Shown here in pieces: positions 1 to 21,845 of a stretch of DNA of 64,000 bases. The notes beneath the pieces are model-generated. The model was not told where the DNA came from, made no database searches, and saw nothing but the letters and a program-made list of their open reading frames with translations. The stretch lies in the NCBI GenBank assembly GCA_964016885.1, contig OZ024740.1, positions 176,762,001-176,826,000 on the forward strand, in the 5' to 3' direction. Every line of letters starts with the position of its first letter. Positions within the stretch are counted from its first letter, which is position 1. The translations under genes were made by a program, and so were the position numbers. The stretch comes from Eledone cirrhosa (lineage: Eukaryota).

Positions 1-13
1 ATCACAAGATACG

Positions 14-20
14 TATAAAA
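14..20 (+). promoter_or_regulatory. TATA-like element upstream of Val-CAC (all units)
   Basis: TATAAAA at -38..-32 from the tRNA 5' end; position is compatible with TFIIIB, but the background is AT-rich. Confidence 0.3.
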
Positions 21-51
21 GAAAGTTATTCGATATCGAGAAAAGGAAATT

Positions 52-124
52 GGTTCCATAGTGTAGTGGTTATCACGTCTGCTTCACACGCGGATGGCCG
101 CGAGTTCGAAACTCGCTGGACCCT
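52..124 (+). tRNA. trnV: tRNA-Val(CAC), unit 1
   Basis: Cloverleaf, anticodon CAC at 85-87; T3.C70 acceptor mismatch. Confidence 0.7.
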
Positions 125-132
125 TTATTACA

Positions 133-277
133 ATATTTTTAATCTACAGTAGCTCTTCTAATTGATGAGTACCCATATAATTTTAATCTACACTAGCTCT
201 TCTAAGACATGAGTGCCCATATAATTTTAAATTACACCAAGTCTTTCAAGCCATCAGTGTCCATATACTTGTCAATC
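133..277 (+). repeat. 44-bp minisatellite, 3 copies plus a partial copy (every unit; 2 copies in units 31-32)
   Basis: ATA(T/A)TTTTAA(TC/AT)TACA...CCAT at 133, 177, 221. Confidence 0.9.
136..140 (+). terminator. Pol III oligo-T terminator for Val-CAC (representative)
   Basis: T5 run 12 nt after the gene. Confidence 0.55.
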
Positions 278-337
278 AATAATACAGATTAATGTCAGTA
301 AATGCGTTTAAAATTATGTGAGAAAGTGACTAGTTTT

Positions 338-410
338 GCTTACATAGTTTAGTGATTACCACGCCAGATTCACAAGCAGGTGATCGCGATTCCGAAACTT
401 TCTGTAATTC
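338..410 (+). pseudogene. Decayed tRNA-Val(CAC) relic (representative; in every unit)
   Basis: GCTTACA TA GTTT AGTGATTAC CAC G CCAGA TT CAC AA GCAGG TGATC GCGAT TCCGAAA CTTTC TGTAATT aligns without gaps to the CAC gene; stems are broken. Confidence 0.85.
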
Positions 411-886
411 TTGTTTCAATTAAAAACAAACTCCAGTTGTGTCATGATCCTTAGATGCTTAAATATTTTTCCATCTATCAACACGGTAGCTTCAATGTGC
501 AGTGGTGTATATTTTATCCTATACTAGATTTGGGCCGACTTGTGCCATACAACAGTACTGAAGTATTTCCTAAATATATATAAGCGCTAATTAAATTTAG
601 ATTGTTAATGAACTGCTTCCAAATTTCCTCATCATGAAACCAAACGATGGCTTATTACCAAATAAAGCCTTATTAAACATGTTTACATGTCCAGTAAATT
701 AGTGAAAGATGTATAAATGTAGAGGTAGCTGATTAGCCATGTAAATACTACGTTATGAACGATTTTATATATTTAGCATCTACGTCAAGAACTTTGTTTA
801 ACGCATGTCAGCCTAGTTTCAGCATTGGTAAAGTATGTAGCAATGGATATTGACATTGGCAAGGATATGATCAGGAGAAATATCTG

Positions 887-894
887 AAAAAAAA
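887..894 (-). terminator. Pol III oligo-T terminator for Val-TAC (representative)
   Basis: A8 on + (T8 on -) about 10 nt after the gene 3' end. Confidence 0.75.
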
Positions 895-903
895 GGAGTG
901 TCA

Positions 904-976
904 AAGTTGCAGCATGTTTCGAACTCACGACTATCTGCGTGTAAAGGAGATATGAGAACCACTACACCATGGAACC
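904..976 (-). pseudogene. trnV: tRNA-Val(TAC), damaged allele, unit 1
   Basis: TAC loop; lesions in anticodon stem, A21 and acceptor stem. Confidence 0.7.
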
Positions 977-1094
977 ACAGACTTGTTTTAGAACAAATAT
1001 TGCCTCAATACATTTACATTTTATCAATTATGCTGAATTGAAACAAATGTAAATGTATTTGATAAGACAATGTTTCTTCTTTCATTCTTCATCT

Positions 1095-1167
1095 GGTTCC
1101 ATGGTGTAGTGGTTATCACATCTGCTTAACACGCAGAAGGTCGTGAGTTCGAAACTCGCTGGAACCT
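1095..1167 (+). tRNA. trnV: tRNA-Val(AAC), unit 1
   Basis: GGTTCCA/TGGAACC acceptor, TCTGC-TTAACAC-GCAGA, GTTCGAAAC; intact. Confidence 0.9.
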
Positions 1168-1176
1168 CCAATTATC

Positions 1177-1183
1177 TTTTTTT
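1177..1183 (+). terminator. Pol III oligo-T terminator for Val-AAC (representative)
   Basis: T7 run 10 nt after the gene. Confidence 0.75.
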
Positions 1184-1476
1184 CTTTTACTTCTATTTCA
1201 TTTTGTGTTGTGTTTGATAGAATCTCACATATTTCTTCTGACTATCTCCTCGACAATTTCTATATCCAGTACTGTATATTTTACCTTACATATGCTGGAA
1301 CTCTGCTGACCTGTGTTTTACAAAAGTACTTGACGTAGATTCGAAATATTAATAACCAATCATTATATAGTATTTATATTGTTAATCAATTGCTTCCAAA
1401 TTTATACAAGTTTCACTAAATTAACAGAAATATAAACGTGTTTCATAATGCAATATACGTTAGGAAGCAACCGTTT

Positions 1477-1550
1477 GATACAATGTTGTAGTGTGTATCT
1501 CATTTGCAAAAAACACGAGATGATCGCGGATTCGACATTCGCAGCAAACA
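1477..1550 (+). pseudogene. Second decayed tRNA-Val relic (representative; in every unit)
   Basis: GATACAATGTTGTAGTGTGTATCTCATTTGC...TGATCGCGGATTCGA(A/C)ATTCGCAGCAAAC aligns to GGTTCCATGGTGTAGTGGTTATCACATCTGC...GGTCGTGAGTTCGAAACTCGCTGGAACC; anticodon loop eroded. Confidence 0.75.
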
Positions 1551-1937
1551 CTCTTAATTTTCAATCTGAATAAATAATATATTTATTTACATTTTTCATA
1601 TCTTGCGTCATTTTAGTTGTTAATGAGGATTGAATATTTTAAAGTTATTGAAAAACACATGTTATACAGTAGGTTTGAAAACAAAATATATTTGTTCCTA
1701 TGTTCCAGAATAGAACATATTTGTAGAAATGATTGCCTAAATATGTCCGACCATGTGCTAAACAATGACAATCATAATTTAGAAAGAAATTGCTCCTTAT
1801 AAACTTATTTAGTTTGATAATCTTCAAACAAGCTTTTTTCTGTGTAGATTGTACATGTAAGTATTAGTGAAGTGAAATATTTCAAAATCACAAGATACGT
1901 ATAAAAGAAAGTTATTCGATATCGAGAAAAGGAAATT

Positions 1938-2010
1938 GGTTCCATAGTGTAGTGGTTATCACGTCTGCTTCACACGCGGAAGGTCGCGAGTTCGAAACTC
2001 GCTGGAGCCC
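1938..2010 (+). tRNA. trnV: tRNA-Val(CAC), unit 2
   Basis: Intact cloverleaf. Confidence 0.85.
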
Positions 2011-2788
2011 TTATTACAATATTTTAATCTACAGTAGCTCTTCTAATTCATGAGTGCCCATATCATTTTAATCTACACTAGCTCTTCTAAGACATGAGTG
2101 CCCATATAATTTTAAATTACACTAGGTCTTTCAAGCGATCAGTGTCCATATATTTGTCAATCAATAATACAGATTAATGTCAGTAAATGCGTTTAAAATT
2201 ATGTGAGAAAGTGACTAGTTTTGCTTACATAGTTTAGTGATTACCACGCCAGATTCACAAGCAGGAGATCGCGATTCCGAAACTTTCTGTAATTCTTGTT
2301 TCAATTAAAAACAATCTCCAGTTGTGTCATGATCCTTAGATGCTTAAATATTTTTCCATCTATCAACACGGTAGCTTCAATGTGCAGTGGTGTATATTTT
2401 ATCCTATACTAGATTTGGGCTGACTTGTGCCATACAACAGTACTGAAGTATTTCCTAAATATATATAACCGCTAATTAAATTTAGATTGTTAATGAACTG
2501 CTTCCAAATTTCCTCATCATGAAACCAATCGATGGCTTATTACCAAATATAGCCTTATTAAACATGTTTACATGTCCAGTAAATTAGTGAAAGATGTATA
2601 AATGTAGAGGTAGCTGATTAGCCATGTAAATACTACGTTATGAACGATTTTATATATTTAGCATCTACGTCAAGAACTTTGTTTAACGCATGTCAGCCTA
2701 GTTTCAGCATTGGTAAAGTATGTAGCAATGGATATTGACATTGGCAAGGATATGATCAGGAGAAATATCTGAAAAAAAAGGAGTGTCA

Positions 2789-2861
2789 AAGTTCCAGCAT
2801 GTTTCGAACTCACGACCATCTGCGTGTAAAGCAGATATGATAACCGCTACACCATTGAACC
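2789..2861 (-). tRNA. trnV: tRNA-Val(TAC), unit 2
   Basis: TAC loop; C6A acceptor mismatch, weak T-stem. Confidence 0.55.
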
Positions 2862-2979
2862 ACAGACTTGTTTTAGAACAAATATTGCCTCAATACATTT
2901 ACATTTTATCAATTATGCTGAATTGAAACAAATGTAAATGTATTTGATAAGACAATGTTTCTTCTTTCATTCTTCATCT

Positions 2980-3052
2980 GGTTCCATGGTGTAGTGGTTA
3001 TCACATCTGCTTAACACGCAGAAGGTCGTGAGTTCGAAACTCGCTGGAACCT
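2980..3052 (+). tRNA. trnV: tRNA-Val(AAC), unit 2
   Basis: Intact. Confidence 0.9.
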
Positions 3053-3824
3053 TCAATTATCTTTTTTTTTGTTTTACTTCTATTTCATTTTGTGTTGTGT
3101 TTGATAGAATCTCACATATTTCTTCTGACTATCTCCTCGACAATTTCTATATCCAGTACTGTATATTTTACCTTACATATGCTGGAACTCTGCTGACCTG
3201 TGTTTTACAAAAGTACTTGACGTAGATTCGAAATATTAATAACCAATCAATATATAGTATTTATATTGTTAATCAACTGCTTCCAAATTTATACAACTTT
3301 CACTAAATTAACAGAAATATAAACGTGTTTCATAATGCAATATATGTTAGGAAGCAACCGTTTGATACAATGTTGTAGTGTGTATCTCATTTGCAAGAAA
3401 CACGAGATGATCGCGGATTCGAAATTCGCAGCAAACACTCTTAATTTTCAATCTGAATAAATAATATATTTATTTACATTTTTCATACCTTGCGTCATTT
3501 TAGTTGTCAATGAGGATTGAATACTTCAATGTTATTGAAAAACACATGTTATACAGTAGGCTTGAAAATAAAATATATTTGTTCCTATGTTCCAGAATAG
3601 AACATATTTGTAGAAATGATTGCCTAAATATGTCCAACCATGTGCTAAACAATGACAATCATAATTTAGAAAGAAATTGCTCTTTATAAACATATTTAGT
3701 TTGATAATCTACACACAAGCCTTTTTCTGTGTAGATTGTACATATAAATATTAGTGAAGTGAAATATTTCAAAATCACAAGATACGTATAAAAGAAAGTT
3801 ATTCGATATCGAGAAAAGGAAATT

Positions 3825-3897
3825 GGTTCCATAGTGTAGTGGTTATCACGTCTGCTTCACACGCGGAAGGTCGCGAGTTCGAGACTCGCTCGAGACT
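3825..3897 (+). pseudogene. trnV: tRNA-Val(CAC), broken acceptor, unit 3
   Basis: 3' strand TCGAGAC gives two mismatches. Confidence 0.65.
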
Positions 3898-4677
3898 TTA
3901 TTAATATATTTTTACTCTACAGTAGCTCTTCTAATTCCTGAGTACCCATATAATTTTAATCTACACTAGCTCTTCTAAGACATGAGTGCCCATATAATTT
4001 TAAATTACACTAGGTCTTTCAAGCCATCAGTGTCCATATATTTGTCAATCAATAATACAGATTAATGTCAGTAAATGCGTTTAAAATTATGTGAGAAAGT
4101 GACTAGTTTTGCTTACATAGTTTAGTGATTACCACAACAGATTCACAAGCAGGAGATCGCGATTCCGAAACTTTCTGTAATTCTTGTTTCAATTAAAAAC
4201 AATCTCCAGTTGTGTCATGATCCTTAGATGCTTAAATATTTTTCCATCTATCAACACGGTAGCTTCAATGTGCAGTGGTGTATATTTTATCCTATACTAG
4301 ATTTGGGCTGACTTGTGCCATACAACAGTACTGAAGTATTTCCTAAATATATATAACCGCTAATTAAATTTAGATTGTTAATGAACTGCTTCCAAATTTC
4401 CTCATCATGACACCAAACGATGGCTTATTACCAAATATAGCCTTATTAAACATGTTTACATGTCCAGTAAATTAGTGAAAGATGTATAAATGTAGAGGTA
4501 GCTGATTAGCCATGTAAATACTACGTTATGAACGATTTTATATATTTAGCATCTACGTCAAGAACTTTGTTTAACGCACATCAGCCTAGTTTCAGCATTG
4601 GTAAAGTATGTAGCAATGGATATTGACATTGGCAAGGAAATGATCAGCAGAAATATCTGAAAAAAAAAGGAGTGTCA

Positions 4678-4750
4678 AAGTTCCAGCATGTTTCGAACTC
4701 ACGACCATCTGCGTGTAAAGCAGATATGATAACCACTACACCATTGAACC
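4678..4750 (-). tRNA. trnV: tRNA-Val(TAC), unit 3
   Basis: C6A mismatch, weak T-stem. Confidence 0.55.
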
Positions 4751-4868
4751 ACAGACTTGCTTTAGAACAAATATTGCCTCAATACATTTACATGTTATCA
4801 ATTATGCTGAATTGAAACAAATGTAAATATATTTGGTAAGACAATGTTTCTTCATTCATTCTTCATCT

Positions 4869-4941
4869 GGTTCCATGGTGTAGTGGTTATCACATCTGCT
4901 TAACACGCAGAAGGTCGTGAGTTCGCAACTCGCTGGAACCT
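4869..4941 (+). tRNA. trnV: tRNA-Val(AAC), unit 3
   Basis: A58C B-box lesion. Confidence 0.7.
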
Positions 4942-5713
4942 TCAATTATCTTTTTTTTTGTTTTACTTCTATTTCATTTTGTGTTGTGTTTGATAGAATC
5001 TCACATATTTCTTCTGACTATCTCCTCGACAATTTCTATATCCAGTAATGTATATTTTACCTTACATATGCTGGAACTCTGCTGACCTGTGTTTTACAAA
5101 AGTACTTGACGTAGATTCGAAATATTAATAACCAATCAATATATAGTATTTATATTGTTAATCAACTGCTTCCAAATTTATACAACTTTCACTAAATTAA
5201 CAGAAATATAAACGTGTTTCATAATGCAATATATGTTAGGAAGCAACCGTTTGATACAATGTTGTAGTGTGTATCTCATTTGCAAGAAACACGAGATGAT
5301 CGCGGATTCGAAATTCGCAGCAAACACTCTTAATTTTCAATCTGAATAAATAATATATTTATTTACATTTTTCATACCTTGCGTCATTTTAGTTGTCAAT
5401 GAGGATTGAATACTTCAATGTTATTGAAAAACACATGTTATACAGTAGGCTTGAAAATAAAATATATTTGTTCCTATGTTCCAGAATAGAACATATTTGT
5501 AGAAATGATTGCCTAAATATGTCCAACCATGTGCTAAACAATGACAATCATAATTTAGAAAGAAATTGCTCTTTATAAACATATTTAGTTTGATAATCTA
5601 CACACAAGCCTTTTTCTGTGTAGATTGTACATATAAATATTAGTGAAGTGAAATATTTCAAAATCACAAGATACGTATAAAAGAAAGTTATTCGATATCG
5701 AGAAAAGGAAATT

Positions 5714-5786
5714 GGTTCCATAGTGTAGTGGTTATCACGTCTGCTTCACACGCGGAAGGTCGCGAGTTCGAGACTCGCTCGAGACT
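5714..5786 (+). pseudogene. trnV: tRNA-Val(CAC), broken acceptor, unit 4
   Basis: TCGAGAC 3' strand. Confidence 0.65.
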
Positions 5787-6565
5787 TTATTAATATATTT
5801 TTACTCTACAGTAGCTCTTCTAATTCCTGAGTACCCATATAATTTTAATCTACACTAGCTCTTCTAAGACATGAGTGCCCATATAATTTTAATTTACACT
5901 AGGTCTTTCAAGCCATCAGTGTCCATATATTTGTCAATCAATAATACAGATTAATGTCAGTAAATGCGTTTAAAATTATGTGAGAAAGTGACTAGTTTTG
6001 CTTACATAGTTTAGTGATTACCACAACAGATTCACAAGCAGGAGATCGCGATTCCGAAACTTTCTGTAATTCTTGTTTCAATTAAAAACAATCTCCAGTT
6101 GTGTCATGATCCTTAGATGCTTAAATATTTTTCCATCTATCAACACGGTAGCTTCAATGTGCAGTGGTGTATATTTTATCCTATACTAGATTTGGGCTGA
6201 CTTGTGCCATACAACAGTACTGAAGTATTTCCTAAATATATATAACCGCTAATTAAATTTAGATTGTTAATGAACTGCTTCCAAATTTCCTCATCATGAA
6301 ACCAAACGATGGCTTATTACCAAATATAGCCTTATTAAACATGTTTACATGTCCAGTAAATTAGTGAAAGATGTATAAATGTAGAGGTAGCTGATTAGCC
6401 ATGTAAATACTACGTTATGAACGATTTTATATATTTAGCATCTACGTCAAGAACTTTGTTTAACGCACATCAGCCTAGTTTCAGCATTGGTAAAGTATGT
6501 AGCAATGGATATTGACATTGGCAAGGAAATGATCAGCAGAAATATCTGAAAAAAAAGGAGTGTCA

Positions 6566-6638
6566 AAGTTCCAGCATGTTTCGAACTCACGACCATCTGC
6601 GTGTAAAGCAGATATGATAACCACTACACCATTGAACC
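6566..6638 (-). tRNA. trnV: tRNA-Val(TAC), unit 4
   Basis: C6A mismatch, weak T-stem. Confidence 0.55.
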
Positions 6639-6756
6639 ACAGACTTGTTTTAGAACAAATATTGCCTCAATACATTTACATGTTATCAATTATGCTGAAT
6701 TGAAACAAATGTAAATGTATTTGGTAAGACAATGTTTCTTCATTCATTCTTCATCT

Positions 6757-6829
6757 GGTTCCATGGTGTAGTGGTTATCACATCTGCTTAACACGCAGAA
6801 GGTCGTGAGTTCGAAACTCGCTGGTACCT
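6757..6829 (+). tRNA. trnV: tRNA-Val(AAC), unit 4
   Basis: T4.T69 mismatch. Confidence 0.8.
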
Positions 6830-7600
6830 TCAATTATCTTTTTTTTGTTTTACTTCTATTTCATTTTGTGTTGTGTTTGATAGAATCTCACATATTTCTT
6901 CTGACTATCTCCTCGACAATTTCTATATCCAGTACTGTATATTTTACCTTACATATGCTGGAACTCTGCTGACCTGTGTTTTACAAAAGTACTTGACGTA
7001 GATTCGAAATATTAATAACCAATCAATATATAGTATTTATATTGTTAATCAACTGCTTCCAAATTTATACAACTTTCACTAAATTAACAGAAATATAAAC
7101 GTGTTTCATAATGCAATATATGTTAGGAAGCAACCGTTTGATACAATGTTGTAGTGCGTATCTCATTTGCAAGAAACACGAGATGATCGCGGATTCGAAA
7201 TTCGCAGCAAACACTCTTAATTTTCAATCTGAATAAATAATATATTTATTTACATTTTTCATACATTGCGTCATTTTAGTTGTCAATGAGGATTGAATAC
7301 TTCAATGTTATTGAAAAACACATGTTATACAGTAGGCTTGAAAATAAAATATATTTGTTCCTATGTTCCAGAATAGAACATATTTGTAGAAATGATTGCC
7401 TAAATATGTCCAACCATGTGCTAAACAATGACAATCATAATTTAGAAAGAAATTGCTCTTTATAAACATATTTAGTTTGATAATCTACACACAAGCCTTT
7501 TTCTGTGTAGATTGTACATATAAATATTAGTGAAGTGAAATATTTCAAAATCACAAGATACGTATAAAAGAAAGTTATTCGATATCGAGAAAAGGAAATT

Positions 7601-7673
7601 GGTTCCATAGTGTAGTGGTTATGACGTCTGCTTCACACGCGGAAGGTCGCGAGTTCGAGACTCGCTCGAGACT
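7601..7673 (+). pseudogene. trnV: tRNA-Val(CAC), broken acceptor, unit 5
   Basis: TCGAGAC plus D-stem C23G. Confidence 0.7.
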
Positions 7674-8452
7674 TTATTAATATATTTTTACACTACAGTA
7701 GCTCTTCTAATTCCTGAGTACCCATATAATTTTAATCTACACTAGCTCTTCTAAGACATGAGTGCCCATATAATTTTAAATTACACTAGGTCTTTCAAGC
7801 CATCAGTGTCCATATATTTGTCAATCAATAATACAGATTAATGTCAGTAAATGCGTTTAAAATTATGTGAGAAAGTGACTAGTTTTGCTTACATAGTTTA
7901 GTGATTACCACAACAGATTCACAAGCAGGAGATCGCGATTCCGAAACTTTCTGTAATTCTTGTTTCAATTAAAAACAATCTCCAGTTGTGTCATGATCCT
8001 TAGATGCTTAAATATTTTTCCATCTATCAACACGGTAGCTTCAATGTGCAGTGGTGTATATTTTATCCTATACTAGATTTGGGCCGACTTGTGCCATACA
8101 ACAGTACTGAAGTATTTCCTAAATATATATAACCGCTAATAAAATTTAGATTGTTAATGAACTGCTTCCAAATTTCCTCATCATGAAACCAAACGATGGC
8201 ATATTACCAAATATAGCCTTATTAAACATGTTTACATGTGCAGTAAATTAGTGAAAGATGTATAAATGTAGAGGTAGCTGATTAGCCATGTAAATACTAC
8301 GTTATGAACGATTTTATATATTTAGCGTCTACGTCAAGAACTTTGTTTAACGCACATCAGCCTAGTTTCAGCATTGGTAAAGTATGTAGCAATGGATATT
8401 GACATTGGCAAGGAAATGATCAGCAGAAATATCTGAAAAAAAAGGAGTGTCA

Positions 8453-8525
8453 AAGTTCCAGCATGTTTCGAACTCACGACCATCTGCGTGTAAAGCAGAT
8501 ATGATAACCACTACACCATGGAACC
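8453..8525 (-). tRNA. trnV: tRNA-Val(TAC), unit 5
   Basis: Array-consensus TAC copy; weak T-stem. Confidence 0.7.
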
Positions 8526-8643
8526 ACAGACTTGTTTTCGGACAAATATTGCCTCAATACATTTACATTTTATCAATTTTGCTGAATTGAAACAAATGTA
8601 AATATATTTGATCAGACAATGTTTCTTGTTTCATTCTTCATCT

Positions 8644-8716
8644 GGTTCCATGGTGTAGTGGTTATCACATCTGCTTAACACGCAGAAGGTCGTGAGTTCG
8701 AAATTCGCTGGAACCT
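8644..8716 (+). tRNA. trnV: tRNA-Val(AAC), unit 5
   Basis: C61T. Confidence 0.78.
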
Positions 8717-9489
8717 TCAATTATCTTTTTTTTTGTTTTACTTCTATTTGATTTTGTGTTGTGTTTGATAGAATCTCACATATTTCTTCTGACTATCTCC
8801 TCGACAATTTCTATATCCAGTACTGTATATTTTACCTATCATATGCTGGAACTCTGGTGCCCTGTGTTTTACAAAAGTACTTGACGTAGATTCGAAATAT
8901 TAATAACCAATCATTATATAGTATTTATATTGTTAATCAATTGCTTCCAAATTTATACAAGTTTCACTAAATTAACAGAAATATAATCGTGTTTCATAAT
9001 GCAATATACGTTAGGAAGCAACCGTTTGATACAATGTTGTAGTGTGTATCTCATTTGCAAAAAACACGAGATGATCGCGGATTCGAAATTCGCAGCAAAC
9101 ACTCTTAATTTTCAATCTGAATAAATAATATATTTATTTACATTTTTCATATCTTGCGTCATTTTAGTTGTCAATGAGGATTGAATACTTTTAACGTTAT
9201 TGAAAAACACATGTTATACAGTAGGTTTGAAAATAAAATATATTTGTTCCTATGTTCCAGAATAGAACATATTTGTAGAAATGATTGCCTAAATATGTCC
9301 GACCATGTGCTAAACAATGACAATCATAATTTAGAAAGAAATTGCTCCTTATAAACTTATTTAGTTTGATAATCTTCACACAAGCTTTTTTCTGTGTAGA
9401 TTGTACATGTAAGTATTAGTGAAGTGAAATATTTCAAAATCACAAGATACGTATAAAAGAAAGTTATTCGATATCGAGAAAAGGAAATT

Positions 9490-9562
9490 GGTTCCATAGT
9501 GTAGTGATTATCACGTCTGCTTCACACGCGGATGGTCGCGAGTTGGAAACTCGCTGGACCCT
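9490..9562 (+). pseudogene. trnV: tRNA-Val(CAC), A/B-box mutant, unit 6
   Basis: G19A, C56G, acceptor mismatch. Confidence 0.7.
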
Positions 9563-10341
9563 TTATTACAATATTTTTAATCTACAGTAGCTCTTCTAAT
9601 TGATGAGTACCCATATAATTTTAATCTACACTAGCTCTTCTAAGACATGAGTGCCCATATAATTTTGAATTACACTAGGTCTTTCAAGCGATCAGTGTCC
9701 ATATATTTGTCAATCAATAATACAGATTAATGTCAGTAAATGCGTTTAAAATTATGTGAGAAAGTGACTAGTTTTGCTTACATAGTTTAGTGATTACCAC
9801 GCCAGATTCACAAGCAGGAGATCGCGATTCCGAAACTTTCTGTAATTCTTGTTTCAATTAAAAACAATCTCCAGTTGTGTCATGATCCTTAGATGCTTAA
9901 ATATTTTTCCATCTATCAACACGGTAGCTTCAATGTGCAGTGGTGTATATTTTATCCTATACTAGATTTGGGCTGACTTGTGCCATACAACAGTACTGAA
10001 GTATTTCCTAAATATATATAACCGCTAATTAAATTTAGATTGTTAATGAACTGCTTCCAAATTTCCTCATCATGAAACCAAACGATGGCTTATTACCAAA
10101 TATAGCCTTATTAAACATGTTTACATGTCCAGTAAATTAGTGAAAGATGTATAAATGTAGAGGTAGCTGATTAGCCATGTAAATACTACGTTATGAACGA
10201 TTTTATATATTTAGCATCTACGTCAAGAACTTTGTTTAACGCATGTCAGCCTAGTTTCAGCATTGGTAAAGTATGTAGCAATGGATATTGACATTGGCAA
10301 GGATATGATCAGGAGAAATATCTGAAAAAAAAGGAGTGTCA

Positions 10342-10414
10342 AAGTTCCAGCATGTTTCGAACTCACGACCATCTGCGTGTAAAGCAGATATGATAACCAC
10401 TACACCATTGAACC
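10342..10414 (-). tRNA. trnV: tRNA-Val(TAC), unit 6
   Basis: C6A mismatch. Confidence 0.55.
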
Positions 10415-10532
10415 ACAGACTTGTTTTAGAACAAATATTGCCTCAATACATTTACATGTTATCAATTATGCTGAATTGAAACAAATGTAAATGTATTTGG
10501 TAAGACAATGTTTCTTCATTCATTCTTCATCT

Positions 10533-10605
10533 GGTTCCATGGTGTAGTGGTTATCACATCTGCTTAACACGCAGAAGGTCGTGAGTTCGAAACTCGCTGG
10601 TACCT
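10533..10605 (+). tRNA. trnV: tRNA-Val(AAC), unit 6
   Basis: T4.T69 mismatch. Confidence 0.8.
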
Positions 10606-11376
10606 TCAATTATCTTTTTTTTGTTTTACTTCTATTTCATTTTGTGTTGTGTTTGATAGAATCTCACATATTTCTTCTGACTATCTCCTCGACAATTTCT
10701 ATATCCAGTACTGTATATTTTACCTTACATATGCTGGAACTCTGCTGACCTCTGTTTTACAAAAGTACTTGACGTAGATTCGAAATATTAATAACCAATC
10801 AATATATAGTATTTATATTGTTAATCAACTGCTTCCAAATTTATACAACTTTCACTAAATTAACAGAAATATAAACGTGTTTCATAATGCAATATATGTT
10901 AGGAAGCAACCGTTTGATACAATGTTGTAGTGCGTATCTCATTTGCAAGAAACACGAGATGATCGCGGATTCGAAATTCGCAGCAAACACTCTTAATTTT
11001 CAATCTGAATAAATAATATATTTATTTACATTTTTCATACATTGCGTCATTTTAGTTGTCAATGAGGATTGAATACTTCAATGTTATTGAAAAACACATG
11101 TTATACAGTAGGCTTGAAAATAAAATATATTTGTTCCTATGTTCCAGAATAGAACATATTTGTAGAAATGATTGCCTAAATATGTCCAACCATGTGCTAA
11201 ACAATGACAATCATAATTTAGAAAGAAATTGCTCTTTATAAACATATTTAGTTTGATAATCTACACACAAGCCTTTTTCTGTGTAGATTGTACATATAAA
11301 TATTAGTGAAGTGAAATATTTCAAAATCACAAGATACGTATAAAAGAAAGTTATTCGATATCGAGAAAAGGAAATT

Positions 11377-11449
11377 GGTTCCATAGTGTAGTGGTTATCA
11401 CGTCTGCTTCACACGCGGAAGGTCGCGAGTTCGAGACTCGCTCGAGACT
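11377..11449 (+). pseudogene. trnV: tRNA-Val(CAC), broken acceptor, unit 7
   Basis: TCGAGAC 3' strand. Confidence 0.65.
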
Positions 11450-12228
11450 TTATTAATATATTTTTACACTACAGTAGCTCTTCTAATTCCTGAGTACCCA
11501 TATAATTTTAATCTACACTAGCTCTTCTAAGACATGAGTGCCCATATAATTTTAAATTACACTAGGTCTTTCAAGCCATCAGTGTCCATATATTTGTCAA
11601 TCAATAATACAGATTAATGTCAGTAAATGCGTTTAAAATTATGTGAGAAAGTGACTAGTTTTGCTTACATAGTTTAGTGATTACCACAACAGATTCACAA
11701 GCAGGAGATCGCGATTCCGAAACTTTCTGTAATTCTTGTTTCAATTAAAAACAATCTCCAGTTGTGTCATGATCCTTAGATGCTTAAATATTTTTCCATC
11801 TATCAACACGGTAGCTTCAATGTGCAGTGGTGTATATTTTATCCTATACTAGATTTGGGCCGACTTGTGCCATACAACAGTACTGAAGTATTTCCTAAAT
11901 ATATATAACCGCTAATAAAATTTAGATTGTTAATGAACTGCTTCCAAATTTCCTCATCATGAAACCAAACGATGGCATATTACCAAATATAGCCTTATTA
12001 AACATGTTTACATGTGCAGTAAATTAGTGAAAGATGTATAAATGTAGAGGTAGCAGATTAGCCATGTAAATACTACGTTATGAACGATTTTATATATTTA
12101 GCGTCTACGTCAAGAACTTTGTTTAACGCACATCAGCCTAGTTTCAGCATTGGTAAAGTATGTAGCAATGGATATTGACATTGGCAAGGAAATGATCAGC
12201 AGAAATATCTGAAAAAAAAGGAGTGTCA

Positions 12229-12301
12229 AAGTTCCAGCATGTTTCGAACTCACGACCATCTGCGTGTAAAGCAGATATGATAACCACTACACCATGGAAC
12301 C
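12229..12301 (-). tRNA. trnV: tRNA-Val(TAC), unit 7
   Basis: Array-consensus copy. Confidence 0.7.
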
Positions 12302-12419
12302 ACAGACTTGTTTTCGGACAAATATTGCCTCAATACATTTACATATTATCAATTTTGCTGAATTGAAACAAATGTAAATATATTTGATCAGACAATGTTT
12401 CTTGTTTCATTCTTCATCT

Positions 12420-12492
12420 GGTTCCATGGTGTAGTGGTTATCACATCTGCTTAACACGCAGAAGGTCGTGAGTTCGAAATTCGCTGGAACCT
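12420..12492 (+). tRNA. trnV: tRNA-Val(AAC), unit 7
   Basis: C61T. Confidence 0.78.
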
Positions 12493-13265
12493 TCAATTAT
12501 CTTTTTTTTTGTTTTACTTCTATTTGATTTTGTGTTGTGTTTGATAGAATCTCACATATTTCTTCTGACTATCTCCTCGACAATTTCTATATCCAGTACT
12601 GTATATTTTACCTATCATATGCTGGAACTCTGGTGCCCTGTGTTTTACAAAAGTACTTGACGTAGATTCGAAATATTAATAACCAATCATTATATAGTAT
12701 TTATATTGTTAATCAATTGCTTCCAAATTTATACAAGTTTCACTAAATTAACAGAAATATAATCGTGTTTCATAATGCAATATACGTTAGGAAGCAACCG
12801 TTTGATACAATGTTGTAGTGTGTATCTCATTTGCAAAAAACACGAGATGATCGCGGATTCGAAATTCGCAGCAAACACTCTTAATTTTCAATCTGAATAA
12901 ATAATATATTTATTTACATTTTTCATATCTTGCGTCATTTTAGTTGTCAATGAGGATTGAATACTTTTAACGTTATTGAAAAACACATGTTATACAGTAG
13001 GTTTGAAAATAAAATATATTTGTTCCTATGTTCCAGAATAGAACATATTTGTAGAAATGATTGCCTAAATATGTCCGACCATGTGCTAAACAATGACAAT
13101 CATAATTTAGAAAGAAATTGCTCCTTATAAACTTATTTAGTTTGATAATCTTCACACAAGCTTTTTTCTGTGTAGATTGTACATGTAAGTATTAGTGAAG
13201 TGAAATATTTCAAAATCACAAGATACGTATAAAAGAAAGTTATTCGATATCGAGAAAAGGAAATT

Positions 13266-13338
13266 GGTTCCATAGTGTAGTGATTATCACGTCTGCTTCA
13301 CACGCGGATGGTCGCGAGTTGGAAACTCGCTGGACCCT
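13266..13338 (+). pseudogene. trnV: tRNA-Val(CAC), A/B-box mutant, unit 8
   Basis: G19A, C56G. Confidence 0.7.
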
Positions 13339-14115
13339 TTATTACAATATTTTTAATCTACAGTAGCTCTTCTAATTGATGAGTACCCATATAATTTTAA
13401 TCTACACTAGCTCTTCTAAGACATGAGTGCCCATATAATTTTAAATTACACTAGGTCTTTCAAGCGATCAGTGTCCATATATTTGTCAATCAATAATACA
13501 GATTAATGTCAGTAAATGCGTTTAAAATTATGTGAGAAAGTGACTAGTTTTGCTTACATAGTTTAGTGATTACCACGCCAGATTCACAAGCAGGAGATCG
13601 CGATTCCGAAACTTTCTGTAATTCTTGTTTCAATTAAAAACAAACTCCAGTTGTATCATGATCCTTAGATGCTTAAATATTTTCCATCTATCAACACGGT
13701 GGCTTCAATGTGCAGTGGTGTATATTTTATCCTATACTAGATTTGGGCCGACTTGTGCCATACAACAGTACTGAAGTATTTCCTAAATATATATAACCGC
13801 TAATTAAGTTTAGATTGTTAATGAACTGCTTCCAAATTTCCTCATCATGAAACCAAACGATGGTTTATTACCAAATATAGCCTTATTAAACATGTTTACA
13901 TGTCCAGTAAATTAGTGAAAGATGTATAAATGTAGAGGTAGCTGATTAGCCATGTAAATACTACGTTATGAACGATTTTATATATTTAGCATCTACGTCA
14001 AAACTTTGTTTAACGCATGTCAGCCTAGTTTCAGCATTGGTAAAGTATGTAGCAATGGATATTGACATTGGCAAGGATATGATCTGGAGAAATATCTGAA
14101 AAAAAAGGAGTGTCA

Positions 14116-14188
14116 AAGTTCCAGCATGTTTCGAACTCACGACCATCTGCGTGTAAAGCAGATATGATAAACACTACACCATGGAACC
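14116..14188 (-). tRNA. trnV: tRNA-Val(TAC), unit 8
   Basis: G19T D-loop lesion. Confidence 0.55.
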
Positions 14189-14306
14189 ACAGACTTGTTT
14201 TAGAACAAATATTGCCTCAATACATTTACATTTTATCAATTATGCTGAATTGAAACAAATGTAAATGTATTTGATAAGACAATGTTTCTTCTTTCATTCT
14301 TCATCT

Positions 14307-14379
14307 GGTTCCATGGTGTAGTGGTTATCACATCTGCTTAACACGCAGAAGGTCGTGAGTTCGAAACTCGCTGGAACCT
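14307..14379 (+). tRNA. trnV: tRNA-Val(AAC), unit 8
   Basis: Intact. Confidence 0.9.
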
Positions 14380-15141
14380 TCAATTATCTTTTATTCTATT
14401 TCATTTTGTGTTGCGTTTCATAGAATCTCACATATTTCTTCTGACTATCTCCTCGACAATTTCTATATCCAGTACTGTATATTTTACCTATCATATGCTG
14501 GAACTCTGCTGACCTGTGTTTTACAAAAGTACTTGACGTAGATTCGAAATATTAATAACCAATCATTATATAGTATTTATATTGTTAATCAATTGCTTCC
14601 AAATTTATACAAGTTTCACTAAATTAACAGAAATATAAACGTGTTTCATAATGCAATATACGTTAGGAAGCAACCGTTTGATACAATGTTGTAGTGTGTA
14701 TCTCATTTGCAAAAAACACGAGATGATCGCGGATTCGAAATTCGCAGCAAACACTCTTAATTTTCAATCTGAATAAATAATATATTTATTTACATTTTTC
14801 ATATCTTGCGTCATTTTAGTTGTCAATGAGGATTGAATACTTTTAATGTTATTGAAAATCACATGTTATACAGTAGGTTTGAAAATAAAATATATTTGTT
14901 CCTATGTTCCAGAATAGAACATATTTGTAGAAATAATTGCCTAAATATGTCCGACCATGTGCTAAACAATGACAATCATAATTTAGAAAGAAATTGCTCT
15001 TTATAAACATATTTAGTTTGATAATCTACACACAAGCTTTTTTCTGTGTAGATTGTACATATAAATATTAGTGAAGTGAAATATTTCAAAATCACAAGAT
15101 ACGTATAAAAGAAAGTTATTCGATATCGAGAAAAGGAAATT

Positions 15142-15214
15142 GGTTCCATAGTGTAGTGGTTATCACGTCTGCTTCACACGCGGAAGGTCGCGAGTTCGAA
15201 ACTCGCTGGAGCCT
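15142..15214 (+). tRNA. trnV: tRNA-Val(CAC), unit 9
   Basis: Intact. Confidence 0.85.
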
Positions 15215-15994
15215 TTATTACAATATTTTTAATCTACAGTAGCTCTTCTAATTCATGAGTACCCATATAATTTTAATTATACACTAGCTCTTCTAAGACA
15301 TGAGTGCCCATATAATTTTAAATTACACTAGGTCTTTCAAGCCATCAGTGTCCATATAATTGTCCATCAATAATACAGATCAATGTCAGTAAATGCGTTT
15401 AAAATTATGTGAGAAAGTGACTAGTTTTGCTTACATAGTTTAGTGATTACCACGCCAGATTCACAAGCAGGAGATCGCGATTCCGAAACTTTCTGTAACT
15501 CTTGTTTCAATTAAAAACAAACTCCAGTTGTGTCATGATCCTTAGATGCTTAAATATTTTTCCATCTATCAACACGGTAGCTTCAATGTGCAGTGGTGTA
15601 TATTTTATCCTATACTAGATTTGGGCCGACTTGTGCCATACAACAGTACTGAAGTATTTCCTAAATATATATAAGCGCTAATTAAATTTAGATTGTTAAT
15701 GAACTTCTTCCAAATTTCCTCATCATGAAACCAAACGATGGCTTATTACCAAATATAGCCTTATTAAACATGTTTACATGTCCAGTAAATTAGTGAAATA
15801 TGTATAAATGTAGAGGTAGCTGATTAGCCATGTAAATACCACGTTATGAACGATTTTATATATTTAGCATCGACGTCAAGAACTTTGTTTAACGCATGAC
15901 AGCCTAGTTTCAGCATTGGTAAAGTATGTAGCAATGGATATTGACATTGGCAAGGATATGATCAGGAGAAATATCTGAAAAAAAAGGAGTGTCA

Positions 15995-16067
15995 AAGATC
16001 CAGCATGTTTCGAACTCACGACCATCTGCGTGTAAAGCAGATATGATAACCACTACACCATGGAACC
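15995..16067 (-). tRNA. trnV: tRNA-Val(TAC), unit 9
   Basis: Acceptor T3.T70 mismatch. Confidence 0.55.
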
Positions 16068-16185
16068 ACAGACTTGTTTTAGAACAAATATTGCCTCAAT
16101 ACATTTACATGTTATCAATTATGCTGAATTGAAACAAATGTAAATGTCTTTGATAAGACAATGTTTCTTCCTTCATTCTTCATCT

Positions 16186-16258
16186 GGTTCCATGGTGTAG
16201 TGGTTATCACATCTGCTTAACACGCAGAAGGTCGTGAGTTCGAAACTCGCTGGAACCT
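16186..16258 (+). tRNA. trnV: tRNA-Val(AAC), unit 9
   Basis: Intact. Confidence 0.9.
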
Positions 16259-17029
16259 TCAATTATCTTTTTTTGTTTTACTTCTATTTCATTTTGTGTT
16301 GTGTTTCATAGAATCTCACATATTTCTTCTGACTATCTCCTCGACAATTTCTATATCCAGTACTGTATATTTTCCCTATCATATGCTGGAACTCTGCTGA
16401 CCTGTGTTTTACACATGTACTTGACGTAGATTCGAAATATTAATAACCAATCATTATATAGTATTTATATTGTTAATGAACTGCTTCCAAATTTATACAA
16501 CTTTCACTAAATTAACAGAAATATAAACGTGTTTCATAATGCAATATACGTTAGGAAGCAACCGTTTGATACAATGTTGTAGTGTGTATCTCATTTGCAA
16601 AAAACACGAGATGATCGCGGATTCGAAATTCGCAGCAAACACTCTTAATTTTCAATCTGAATAAATAATATATTTATTTACATTTTTCATATCTTGCGTC
16701 ATTTTAGTTGTCAATGAGGATTGAATACTTTTAATGTTATTGAAAATCACATGTTATACAGTAGGTTTGAAAATAAAATATATTTGTTCCTATGTTCCAG
16801 AATAGAACATATTTGTAGAAATAATTGCCTAAATATGTCCGACCATGTGCTAAACAATGAAAATCATAATTTAGAAAGAAATTGCTCTTTATAAACATAT
16901 TTAGTTTGATAATCTACACACAAGCTTTTTTCTGTGTAGATTGTACATATAAATATTAGTGAAGTGAAATATTTCAAAATCACAAGATACGTATAAAAGA
17001 AAGTTATTCGATATCGAGAAAAGGAAATT

Positions 17030-17102
17030 GGTTCCATAGTGTAGTGGTTATCACGTCTGCTTCACACGCGGAAGGTCGCGAGTTCGAAACTCGCTGGAGC
17101 CT
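17030..17102 (+). tRNA. trnV: tRNA-Val(CAC), unit 10
   Basis: Intact. Confidence 0.85.
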
Positions 17103-17882
17103 TTATTACAATATTTTTAATCTACAGTAGCTCTTCTAATTCATGAGTACCCATATAATTTTAATTATACACTAGCTCTTCTAAGACATGAGTGCCCATA
17201 TAATTTTAAATTACACTAGGTCTTTCAAGCCATCAGTGTCCATATAATTGTCAATCAATAATACAGATCAATGTCAGTAAATGCGTTTAAAATTATGTGA
17301 GAAAGTGACTAGTTTTGCTTACATAGTTTAGTGATTACCACGCCAGATTCACAAGCAGGAGATCGCGATTCCGAAACTTTCTGTAACTCTTGTTTCAATT
17401 AAAAACAAACTCCAGTTGTGTCATGATCCTTAGATGCTTAAATATTTTTCCATCTATCAACACGGTAGCTTCAATGTGCAGTGGTGTATATTTTATCCTA
17501 TACTAGATTTGGGCCGACTTGTGCCATACAACAGTACTGAAGTATTTCCTAAATATATATAAGCGCTAATTAAATTTAGATTGTTAATGAACTTCTTCCA
17601 AATTTCCTCATCATGAAACCAAACGATGGCTTATTACCAAATATAGCCTTATTAAACATGTTTACATGTCCAGTAAATTAGTGAAATATGTATAAATGTA
17701 GAGGTAGCTGATTAGCCATGTAAATACCACGTTATGAACGATTTTATATATTTAGCATCGACGTCAAGAACTTTGTTTAACGCATGACAGCCTAGTTTCA
17801 GCATTGGTAAAGTATGTAGCAATGGATATTGACATTGGCAAGGATATGATCAGGAGAAATATCTGAAAAAAAAGGAGTGTCA

Positions 17883-17955
17883 AAGATCCAGAATGTTTCG
17901 AACTCACGACCATCTGCGTGTAAAGCAGATATGATAACCACTACACCATGGAACC
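17883..17955 (-). pseudogene. trnV: tRNA-Val(TAC), damaged, unit 10
   Basis: Acceptor mismatch and an extra T-stem mismatch. Confidence 0.6.
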
Positions 17956-18073
17956 ACAGACTTGTTTTAGAACAAATATTGCCTCAATACATTTACATGT
18001 TATCAATTATGCTGAATTGAAACAAATGTAAATGTCTTTGATAAGACAATGTTTCTTCCTTCATTCTTCATCT

Positions 18074-18146
18074 GGTTCCATGGTGTAGTGGTTATCACAT
18101 CTGCTTAACACGCAGAAGGTCGTGAGTTCGAAACTCGCTGGAACCT
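18074..18146 (+). tRNA. trnV: tRNA-Val(AAC), unit 10
   Basis: Intact. Confidence 0.9.
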
Positions 18147-18916
18147 TCAATTAACTTTTTTTGTTTTACTTCTATTTCATTTTGTGTTGTGTTTCATAGA
18201 ATCTCACATATTTCTTCTGACTATCTCCTCGACAATTTCTATATCCAGTACTGTATATTTTCCCTATCATATGCTGGAACTCTGCTGACCTGTGTTTTAC
18301 ACATGTACTTGACGTAGATTCGAAATATTAATAACCAATCATTATATAGTATTTATATTGTTAATGAACTGCTTCCAAATTTATACAACTTTCACTAAAT
18401 TAACAGAAATATAAACGTGTTTCATAATGCAATATACGTTAGGAAGCAACCGTTTGATACAATGTTGTAGTGTGTATCTCATTTGCAAAAAACACGAGAT
18501 GATCGCGGATTCGAAATTCGCAGCAAACACTCTTAATTTTCAATCTGAATAAATAATATATTTATTTACATTTTTCATATCTTGCGTCATTTTAGTTGTT
18601 AATGAGGATTGAATATTTTAATGTTATTGAAAAACACATGTTATACAGTAGGTTTGAAAATAAAATATATTTGTTCCTATGTTCCAGAATAGAACATATT
18701 TGTAGAAATGATTGCCTAAATATGTCCGACCATGTGCTAAACAATGACAATCATAATTTAGAAAGAAATTGCTCCTTATAAACTTATTTAGTTTGATAAT
18801 CTTCACACAAGCTTTTTTCTGTGTAGATTGTACATGTAAGTATTAGTGAAGTGAAATATTTCAAAATCACAAGATACGTATAAAAGAAAGTTATTCGATA
18901 TCGAGAAAAGGAAATT

Positions 18917-18989
18917 GGTTCCATAGTGTAGTGATTATCACGTCTGCTTCACACGCGGATGGCCGCGAGTTCGAAACTCGCTGGACCCT
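18917..18989 (+). tRNA. trnV: tRNA-Val(CAC), unit 11 (possibly pseudogene)
   Basis: G19A and acceptor mismatch. Confidence 0.5.
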
Positions 18990-19768
18990 TTATTACAATA
19001 TTTTTAATCTACAGTAGCTCTTCTAATTGATGAGTACCCATATAATTTTAATCTACACTAGCTCTTCTAAGACATGAGTGCCCATATCATTTTAAATTAC
19101 ACCAAGTCTTTCAAGCCATCAGTGTCCATATACTTGTCAATCAATAATACAGATTAATGTCAGTAAATGCGTTTAAAATTATGTGAGAAAGTGACTAGTT
19201 TTGCTTACATAGTTTAGTGATTACCACGCCAGATTCACAAGCAGGAGATCGCGATTCCGAAACTTTCTGTAATTCTTGTTTCAATTAAAAACAAACTCCA
19301 GTTGTGTCATGATCCTTAGATGCTTAAATATTTTTCCATCTATCAACACGGTAGCTTCAATGTGCAGTGGTGTATATTTCATCCTATACTAGATTTGGGC
19401 CGACTTGTGCCATACAACAGTACTGAAATATTTCCTAAATATATATAACCGCTAATTAAATTTAGATTGTTAATGAACTGCTTCCAAATTTCCTCATCAT
19501 GAAACCAAACGATGGCTTATTACCAAATATAGCCTTATTAAACATGTTTACATGTCCAGTAAATTAATGACAGATGTATAAATGTAGAGGTAGCTGATTA
19601 GCCATGTAAATACCACGTTATGAACGATTTTATATATTTAGCATCTACGTCAAGAACTTTGTTTAACGCATGTCAGCCTAGTGTCAGCATTGGTAAAGTA
19701 TGTAGCAATGGATATTGACATTGGCAAGGATATGATCAGGAGAAATATCTGAAAAAAAAGGAGTGTCA

Positions 19769-19841
19769 AAGTTCCAGCATGTTTCGAACTCACGACCATC
19801 TGCGTGTAAAGCAGATATGATAACCACTACACCATGGAACC
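19769..19841 (-). tRNA. trnV: tRNA-Val(TAC), unit 11
   Basis: Array-consensus copy. Confidence 0.7.
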
Positions 19842-19959
19842 AGAGACTTGTTTTAGAACAAATATTGCCTCAATACATTTACATTTTATCAATTATGCTG
19901 AATTGAAACAAATGTAAATGTATTTGATAAGACAATGTTTCTTCTTTCATTCTTCATCT

Positions 19960-20032
19960 GGTTCCATGGTGTAGTGGTTATCACATCTGCTTAACACGCA
20001 GAAGGTCGTGAGTTCGTAACTCGCTGGAATCT
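19960..20032 (+). tRNA. trnV: tRNA-Val(AAC), unit 11
   Basis: A58T, G2.T71. Confidence 0.65.
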
Positions 20033-20802: not shown

Positions 20803-20875
20803 GGTTCCATAGTGTAGTGGTTATCACGTCTGCTTCACACGCGGATGGCCGCGAGTTCGAAACTCGCTGGACCCT
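20803..20875 (+). tRNA. trnV: tRNA-Val(CAC), unit 12
   Basis: As unit 1. Confidence 0.7.
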
Positions 20876-21654: not shown

Positions 21655-21727
21655 AAGTTGCAGCATGTTTCGAACTCACGACTATCTGCGTGTAAAGGAG
21701 ATATGAGAACCACTACACCATGGAACC
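21655..21727 (-). pseudogene. trnV: tRNA-Val(TAC), damaged allele, unit 12
   Basis: Same lesions as unit 1. Confidence 0.7.
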
Positions 21728-21845
21728 ACAGACTTGTTTTAGAACAAATATTGCCTCAATACATTTACATTTTATCAATTATGCTGAATTGAAACAAATG
21801 TAAATGTATTTGATAAGACAATGTTTCTTCTTTCATTCTTCATCT

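What the first reader, a model, noticed from the sequence alone, without database searches (positions are those of the whole stretch)
52..1937. The 1.89-kb unit is a fossil multimer of a ~0.3-0.46-kb 'tRNA-Val + spacer' monomer
Seen: tRNA-like starts at 52(+), 338(+), 976(-), 1095(+), 1477(+) and a stub at 641(-). The spacer after relic 338 (~460-626) aligns directly with the spacer after AAC (~1226-1403), e.g. TTTAGATTGTTAATGAACTGCTTCCAAATTT vs TTTATATTGTTAATCAA(C/T)TGCTTCCAAATTT, and G(C/T)CGACTTGTGCCATACAACAGTACT vs GCTGACCTGTGTTTTACAAAAGTACT. A fainter echo follows relic 1477 (CCGACCATGTGCTAAACAA; TATTTAGTTTGATAATC). Inference: three tiers of amplification, from monomer to a five-mer with an inversion to the 1.89-kb array and multi-unit higher-order repeats, similar in layout to alpha-satellite HORs but built from a tRNA gene.
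Basis: partly seen in the sequence, partly recalled or inferred. Interest (0 to 1): 0.72.

Follow-up and report, generated by a model that had tools for sequence, protein, structure and literature searches.

The report
Valine tRNA array hiding fold-back palindrome
This is a long tandem array of 1.89-kb units, each patched together from older copies of one valine tRNA gene plus spacer, including an 860-base inverted duplicate; the three intact-looking genes likely gained all three valine anticodons by mutation before the unit was amplified and likely began to decay, a variant of known tRNA gene arrays.

Summary
Largely confirmed. The window is one array of 33 full 1.89-kb units (mean difference 2.6%). 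The spacer after relic 338 matches the spacer after the AAC gene (z 25). The echo after relic 1477 is weak (8 of 1000 shuffles); the spacer after the CAC gene shows no homology. Across the palindrome, tRNA bodies are conserved (92%), spacers 76%, inner flanks 56%: the signature of once-transcribed, selected genes. The CAC, AAC and TAC genes descend from one monomer. Among units the bodies are no better conserved than spacers, and many copies are broken. All 99 copies lack the valine determinant A73. The top tier is irregular (one 11-unit duplicate, dimer patches), not a regular alpha-satellite repeat. Closest known: the Arabidopsis Ser-Tyr-Tyr array. No like finding in the scan's notes. Organism and expression unknown.

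The parts
1..64000 (+). Tandem array of ~1886-bp units (33 full units plus partial ends); no edge inside the window
   Evidence: consensus covers 63,914 of 64,000 bases, no inverted units; mean pairwise difference 2.6%
52..124 (+). T1: tRNA-Val(CAC) gene; U73; T5 run at +12; passes my stem/invariant check in 8 of 33 units
133..267 (+). 44-bp minisatellite, about 3 copies, in place of a recognisable monomer spacer
   Evidence: no homology to other spacers
338..410 (+). T2: tRNA-Val relic of the CAC type (shares A9, G26, C34, C50 with T1); no T4 run within 57 nt
411..626 (+). D2: spacer homologous to D4 (150/216) and D3 (122/180)
628..641 (-). T6: 14-nt stub of a tRNA 5' end; outer end of the inverted duplicate (left junction at about 627)
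630..1488 (.). 860-bp diverged palindrome, arms 630-1029 and 1036-1488, loop about 1030-1035
642..903 (-). Inverted copy of spacer D4 and upstream region U5 (D3, U6), with internal deletions
   Evidence: score 240 vs 32+-5.3, 0/300; alignment
904..976 (-). T3: tRNA-Val(TAC) gene; A52:A62 mismatch in 33 of 33 units; anticodon AAC in units 24 and 26; T8 run at +10
977..1094 (.). Head-to-head upstream regions of T3 and T4 around the loop, with a perfect 15-bp inverted repeat
1095..1167 (+). T4: tRNA-Val(AAC) gene, best preserved (62.2 bits; passes my check in 17 of 33 units); U73; T12 run at +10
1168..1476 (+). D4+U5: complete monomer spacer (monomer period 382 bp from 1095 to 1477)
1477..1550 (+). 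T5: tRNA-Val relic of the AAC type (G9, A26, A34)
1694..1825 (+). Weak colinear echo of the monomer spacer
   Evidence: profile score 23.2, 8 of 1000 shuffles
1..14170 (+). First copy of a near-identical block repeated at 20752-34923 (11-unit offset, 13 mismatches, 2 gaps)

Best explanation
It is a tandem tRNA gene array whose 1.89-kb unit contains diverged copies of one tRNA-Val-plus-spacer monomer and an 860-bp palindrome, likely built in four steps: local tandem duplication of a ~380-bp monomer, a likely fold-back replication event that inserted an inverted copy, anticodon changes likely kept by selection, and later amplification of the whole unit, likely by unequal crossing-over with relaxed selection per copy. 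Step 1 (homology shown, order inferred): four direct monomers, two CAC-type (T1, T2) and two AAC-type (T4, T5). Step 2 (geometry shown, mechanism inferred): synthesis running leftwards through T5, D4 and T4 folded back about 60 bases upstream of T4, recopied ~450 bases (U4, T4, D4, U5, 14 nt of T5), then rejoined the template at the end of D2, with little or no loss. Step 3 (inferred): T1, T3 and T4 stayed transcribed by Pol III and selected while spacers drifted 24-32%, and came to carry CAC, TAC and AAC; T2 and T5 died. Step 4 (pattern shown): the unit was amplified; copies recombine and duplicate in blocks of 1, 2 or 11 units; broken alleles now spread, so today the array likely supplies mostly tRNA-Val(AAC)-like RNA from a subset of copies, if any.
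For: Spacer homology z 13-39. Palindrome and both junctions. T2 sides with T1 at 4 of the 6 sites that set T1 apart from T4 (9, 26, 34, 50); T5 sides with T4 at 5 of 6. Across the arms: body 67/73, spacer 172/225, inner flanks 19/34 (Fisher p 0.004 and 0.02), the pattern reported for active tRNA genes (PMC6130373, passages). Relic T2 vs T4 50/73, same as spacer (p 0.88). All 6 T1-T4 differences keep pairing and A35/C36; 83 of 219 possible changes would, P 0.003. T runs at +10 to +12 after T1, T3, T4. A double change C31-G39 to U31-A39 in T4 of units 24-26 keeps the pair. Among 24 non-redundant units, variant alleles in T1, T3, T4 are 18, 18, 11 vs 12 expected; stems broken in many copies. Four-gamete incompatibility rises from 6% to 38% with distance, as recombination gives. 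Same layout and decay described for Arabidopsis (PMC2886086).
Against: No copy has A73 (0 of 99), which a review calls a conserved valine determinant (PMC9976931, passages); T1 has U3.G70, and a G.U at pair 3 impairs E. coli tRNA-Val (same source). So charging is doubtful. D2 is not significantly farther from D3/D4 than they are from each other (p 0.27, 0.17), so one-step triplication stays open. A pre-existing short inverted repeat at the fold-back point was supported in only 1 of 18 comparisons. The first spacer shows no homology and the fifth only weak homology, so M1 and M5 as full monomers rest mainly on the tRNA bodies. Raised mutation at active tRNA genes could mask selection among units, so 'relaxed' is not clean. 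Flank tests are post hoc with small counts; intact vs relic flanks alone p 0.12.
Confidence: 0.68

Rival explanations
1. One ODIRA-type inverted triplication made T2-D2, T3-D3 and T4-D4 at once from a single monomer; the left palindromic junction was later rearranged.
For: Centre copy inverted between two direct copies, short-loop junction on the right; the three spacers are not significantly unequal in distance; such junctions rearrange and gain spacer (PMC10766186, passages).
Against: T2 groups with T1, not with T3/T4, at 4 diagnostic sites; the inverted piece runs about 85 bases beyond the end of D2 into U5 and T5, which has no third copy.
Confidence: 0.14
2. The tRNA bodies were kept alike by gene conversion among themselves or with tRNA genes elsewhere, and the array has always been a non-functional satellite.
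For: No A73 in 99 copies; T3 mismatched in 33 of 33; no excess conservation among units; single-site matches to paralogues (T3 to AAC in units 24, 26; T1 A44 to T in 7 units); variants in D2/D4 lean toward the paralogue (16 of 29 vs 9.9, p 0.016).
Against: Variants in the palindrome arms do not lean toward the partner (5 of 25 vs 8.6 expected); three distinct bases persist at position 34 only; differences are structure-preserving; inner flanks are over-diverged, which conversion does not predict; terminators kept.
Confidence: 0.1
3. One reading: five monomers, one flipped in place, then a regular alpha-satellite-like higher-order repeat.
For: Five tRNA-derived bodies, one on the minus strand; units 97.4% alike while monomers are 68-75% alike; 7 unit pairs differ at 4 sites or fewer at lag 11.
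Against: An in-place inversion would not leave the same 450 bases on both strands, including U5 and the start of T5. Units 8-11 do not match 19-22 and nothing recurs at lag 22.
Confidence: 0.05
4. The monomer is a tRNA-derived SINE that became a satellite.
For: tRNA head plus ~300-bp body; SINE-derived satellites exist (PMC10702118, abstract).
Against: Complete tRNA bodies with T runs 10-12 nt downstream, which would stop Pol III before the body; upstream sequence is duplicated too; no A-rich tail seen.
Confidence: 0.02
5. The palindrome or the 11-unit duplicate is an assembly artefact.
For: The 11-unit duplicate is 99.89% identical and could be two haplotypes joined in line; for that block alone I put this at about 0.2.
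Against: The palindrome arms are only 69% alike and occur in 33 of 33 units, unlike a fold-back read chimera; units carry structured variation.
Confidence: 0.01

Closest known systems
Arabidopsis thaliana Ser-Tyr-Tyr tRNA array (27 triplet units; Kane et al. 2010, PMC2886086: abstract, first part of Results, one Discussion section read)
   Same: Three tRNA genes per unit; internal tandem duplication before expansion; single and intercalated multi-unit duplications; many non-functional copies; unequal crossing-over and drift proposed.
   Different: Here all genes and relics come from one monomer, one copy is an inverted duplicate, three anticodons differ, base 73 is U, and recombination is seen inside units whereas the Arabidopsis unit was reported as kept intact. 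The Arabidopsis cluster is expressed in root tips (PMC12308677, abstract); expression here is unknown.
Phytophthora infestans monomeric, dimeric and trimeric tRNA arrays (PMC9584435, passages read)
   Same: Large tandem arrays, including units with the same amino acid and different anticodons; monomer units of about 0.5 kb.
   Different: The passages read report no fossil monomers, relics or inverted duplicate inside units.
A. thaliana tRNA-Cys cluster (PMC10701932, abstract), Entamoeba tRNA arrays (PMC2652664, abstract), human 1q23.3 tRNA VNTR (PMC4041453, abstract)
   Same: 0.4-kb gene-plus-spacer monomers with a pseudogene (Cys cluster); multi-gene units with short tandem repeats in spacers (Entamoeba); tens of units (human).
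   Different: Cys cluster has about four units and no higher tier; Entamoeba and human units join unrelated tRNAs.
Inverted duplications and triplications by template switching (ODIRA; PMC10766186, passages read)
   Same: Inverted copy beside direct copies with a short-spacer palindromic junction.
   Different: Here 450 bases, ancient (arms 24% diverged in spacers), one junction asymmetric, and fixed in every unit of an array.
Primate alpha-satellite higher-order repeats (features recalled; only search listings seen)
   Same: Diverged monomers inside a homogeneous larger unit.
   Different: Monomers are genes, unequal in length, not all on one strand; no evidence on centromere role.

Membership tests
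Tandem tRNA gene array (Ser-Tyr-Tyr type) | Head-to-tail units each with several tRNA genes | tested here: met
   99 ARAGORN calls in 34 unit positions
Tandem tRNA gene array (Ser-Tyr-Tyr type) | Unit built by internal duplication before expansion | tested here: met
   spacers 68-75% alike within a unit vs 97.4% between units
Tandem tRNA gene array (Ser-Tyr-Tyr type) | Single and multi-unit duplications, defective copies | tested here: met
Tandem tRNA gene array (Ser-Tyr-Tyr type) | Concerted evolution between species; expression of some copies | not testable with these tools
   no genome held; no relative's locus or RNA data obtained
Eukaryotic tRNA-Val | Cloverleaf, A35 and C36, downstream T run | tested here: met
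   T4 62.2 bits; consensus T1, T3, T4 keep A35, C36; T runs; only 17, 8 and 0 of 33 copies of T4, T1, T3 pass my full check
Eukaryotic tRNA-Val | Discriminator A73 | tested here: not met
   U in 97, C in 2 of 99; determinant per PMC9976931
Alpha-satellite-type higher-order repeat (features recalled) | Diverged monomers inside a near-identical n-mer | tested here: met
   holds for the 1.89-kb unit
Alpha-satellite-type higher-order repeat (features recalled) | Monomers of one length, all head to tail | tested here: not met
   steps of 286-461 bp, one inverted
Alpha-satellite-type higher-order repeat (features recalled) | A fixed multi-unit period repeated many times | tested here: not met
   lag 11: 7 of 22 pairs near-identical; lag 22: 0 of 11; window covers only three such periods
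Alpha-satellite-type higher-order repeat (features recalled) | Centromeric chromatin | not testable with these tools
   no position or chromatin data
ODIRA inverted triplication | Short-spacer palindromes at both junctions | tested here: not met
   right junction yes, left offset by about 85 bases
ODIRA inverted triplication | Three copies of equal age; short inverted repeat at the switch | tested here: inconclusive
SINE-derived satellite | Transcribed-through head, body and tail without upstream flank | tested here: not met
   T runs at +10 to +12; upstream regions homologous

The most novel reading that the evidence does not exclude
In this lineage one tRNA-Val gene rebuilt the whole valine decoding set (AAC, CAC, TAC) by local duplication, fold-back and anticodon change, and these tRNAs work with U73 in place of the near-universal A73, so the lineage's valyl-tRNA synthetase has changed its identity rules; the array is the main valine tRNA locus and a frozen record of that event.
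Probability: 0.15. Interest if true: 0.65.

Novelty: new variant of a known kind. Interest (0 to 1): 0.36.

Why it matters
It is an unusually legible record of how a gene array is born: monomer, inverted duplicate, anticodon change, amplification, decay. The palindrome gives a built-in control, since a live gene and plain spacer split on the same date, and shows conserved bodies with over-diverged flanks. It also warns that tRNA counts from such assemblies include many broken copies. If the U73 genes are charged, valine identity is less fixed than reviews state. Otherwise it is one more tRNA array of a described kind.

Tried and rejected
No whole genome is held, so array edges, other tRNA-Val genes and dispersed monomers could not be examined. 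No read or contig alignment was obtained, so conservation in relatives is open. Two metagenome scans with tRNA T-arm motifs found 0 matches. Scan notes: nothing by place or sequence; word look-ups gave 1 and 8 notes on prokaryotic tRNA-linked relics, none bearing on this. Rfam found only tRNA at gathering score (93 hits); other hits in 1-3900 were far below threshold. No stop-free frame above 76 aa in 1-4000: no coding role. Ongoing arm-to-arm conversion not supported. An old inverted repeat in the monomer: 1 of 18 comparisons. The 44-bp minisatellite as a spacer derivative: not supported. Homology of the regions upstream of T1 and T2 to the other upstream regions: none significant bar one at 8/300; the high global identities for those short AT-rich pieces are not evidence. 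Paper searches for a tRNA-derived satellite or a tRNA array with an internal inverted duplicate listed no such case; the library is open-access only and no supplements were read. PMC3923123 and PMC7919458 (passages) confirm that anticodon shifts are known but gave no valine case in the passages seen.

Full report
What the window is. ARAGORN tRNA genes in a strict cycle: Val-CAC (+), Val-TAC (-), Val-AAC (+). Cutting at the CAC gene gives 33 full units of 1843-1889 bp with a mean pairwise difference of 2.6%; the unit consensus covers 63,914 of 64,000 bases and no unit is inverted. GC is 32% throughout and no stop-free frame exceeds 76 aa in the first 4 kb. An A34 valine anticodon and T runs after the genes point to a eukaryotic Pol III locus (established knowledge, recalled). 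Labels used: T1 52-124, T2 338-410, T3 976-904, T4 1095-1167, T5 1477-1550, T6 641-628; D is spacer downstream of a gene, U the region upstream.

Check of the observation. Relics T2 and T5 beat all 1000 shuffles against T1 and T4. D2 matches D4 (score 145, shuffles 28+-4.6, 0 of 300) and only on the same strand. The echo after T5 is marginal by pairwise, nhmmer and global tests (8-74 of 300) and modest by a profile of the other spacers (0 of 150; 8 of 1000), colinear at 1694-1825; reversed, complemented and reverse-complemented controls score at background. The scoring was my own and the p-values are uncorrected, so I treat it as probable, not shown. D1 has no detectable homology and holds a 44-bp minisatellite.

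The strongest internal match is inverted: window 630-1488 aligns to itself at 626 of 912 columns, E 4e-129. The left arm carries, on the minus strand, an upstream region, T3, a spacer, a second upstream region and a 14-nt tRNA stub; the right arm carries U4, T4, D4, U5 and the start of T5. The arms meet at a loop of about 6 bases some 60 bases upstream of each gene, inside which lies a perfect 15-bp inverted repeat. At the left junction D2 ends at the position matching window 1403 and the inverted copy begins about 85 bases farther along the monomer. The 16 bases left of the loop also align on the plus strand to the D4 end, so almost nothing was lost. An in-place inversion cannot give the same 450 bases on both strands. 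One fold-back with a return to the template explains both junctions (inference). A one-step inverted triplication (PMC10766186, passages) is the main rival: spacer distances do not exclude it (p 0.27 and 0.17), but T2 shares A9, G26, C34 and C50 with T1 rather than T4, which suggests T2-D2 was a separate older monomer.

Function, past. T1, T3 and T4 are 85-92% alike while spacers are 68-75% and relics 62-71%. Across the arms, which split on one date, the body is 67/73, the spacer 172/225 and the inner flanks 19/34 (p 0.004 and 0.02). Conserved bodies with over-diverged inner flanks are what Thornlow et al. report for active tRNA genes (PMC6130373, passages). All six T1-T4 differences keep pairing and A35/C36 (P 0.003), and position 34 takes three states, C, T and A, the usual eukaryotic valine set (recalled). 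Since D2, D3 and D4 are homologous, these anticodons arose within one local family. Anticodon shifts are known (PMC3923123, PMC7919458, passages).

Function, present. Among 24 non-redundant units (9 of 33 dropped as within 4 differences of another) the bodies carry 18, 18 and 11 variant alleles against about 12 expected from the rest of the unit. By my check of 20 stem pairs and 12 invariant bases, 8 of 33 T1, 0 of 33 T3 and 17 of 33 T4 copies are intact. Inner flanks of the three genes hold 23 alleles in 90 sites against 14 expected (p 0.017), relic flanks 13 in 80; the direct contrast is not significant (p 0.12). This fits some continued transcription with weak selection per copy, but raised mutation could mask selection. 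Against charging: base 73 is U in 97 and C in 2 of 99 copies, whereas A73 is described as a conserved valine determinant, though it had no effect for one viral mimic with wheat enzyme (PMC9976931, passages). Arm variants do not lean toward the partner arm (5 of 25 vs 8.6); D2/D4 variants do lean toward the paralogue (16 of 29 vs 9.9, p 0.016), which may be conversion or the consensus not being ancestral.

The top tier. Window 1-14170 recurs at 20752-34923 with 13 mismatches and 2 gaps; shorter near-identical blocks lie at offsets of 1, 2, 3, 5, 9, 13, 14 and 16 units; 7 of 22 pairs are near-identical at lag 11 and 0 of 11 at lag 22. Incompatible site pairs rise from 6% to 38% with distance. 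This is the irregular pattern of unequal crossing-over, not a fixed period; the 11-unit block could also be a haplotype join.

Comparison. The Arabidopsis Ser-Tyr-Tyr array has the same tiers: a doublet made before expansion, the triplet as the unit, intercalated multi-unit duplications, non-functional copies (PMC2886086). P. infestans has dimeric and trimeric arrays, some with one amino acid and different anticodons (PMC9584435). So this works like, and belongs to, tandem tRNA gene arrays. It resembles alpha-satellite repeats only in having diverged monomers inside a uniform unit. What my five searches did not list is a unit made from one monomer with an internal fold-back and all three anticodons; that is the variant. 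Supplements were not read.

Verdict. Observation partly confirmed and extended; interpretation partly supported. Architecture about 0.9, past function about 0.8, fold-back route about 0.6-0.7 given the architecture, whole account 0.68. New variant of a known kind, interest 0.36.

Noticed in passing
window 56624-56697 and 58468-58541 (units 31, 32): T1 has an 8-nt anticodon loop (ARAGORN 'aaac'), a D-loop change and an adjacent deletion of about one 44-bp minisatellite copy; looks like a four-base anticodon but is probably a pseudogene.
   Followed up: no
window 44479, 46361, 48247 (T4 of units 24-26): Double change C31-G39 to U31-A39 that keeps the anticodon-stem pair.
   Followed up: partly
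window 44288-44360 and 48056-48128 (-): T3 anticodon reads AAC instead of TAC in units 24 and 26: a shift still segregating in the array.
   Followed up: partly
window 3692-3751 (about 1804-1863 in unit 1): A second small inverted repeat, 27-nt arms, 78% complementary, 6 nt apart, at the end of the weak spacer echo; possibly another old fold-back.
   Followed up: partly
whole array: Transversions outnumber transitions among unit variants (176 vs 132) and CpG transitions are only mildly raised (0.14 vs 0.09 per site), suggesting little CpG methylation.
   Followed up: no
T1 of units 3-5, 7, 14-16, 18, 20, 21: One haplotype with two broken acceptor-stem pairs and a T-loop change occupies 10 of 33 units.
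   Followed up: partly
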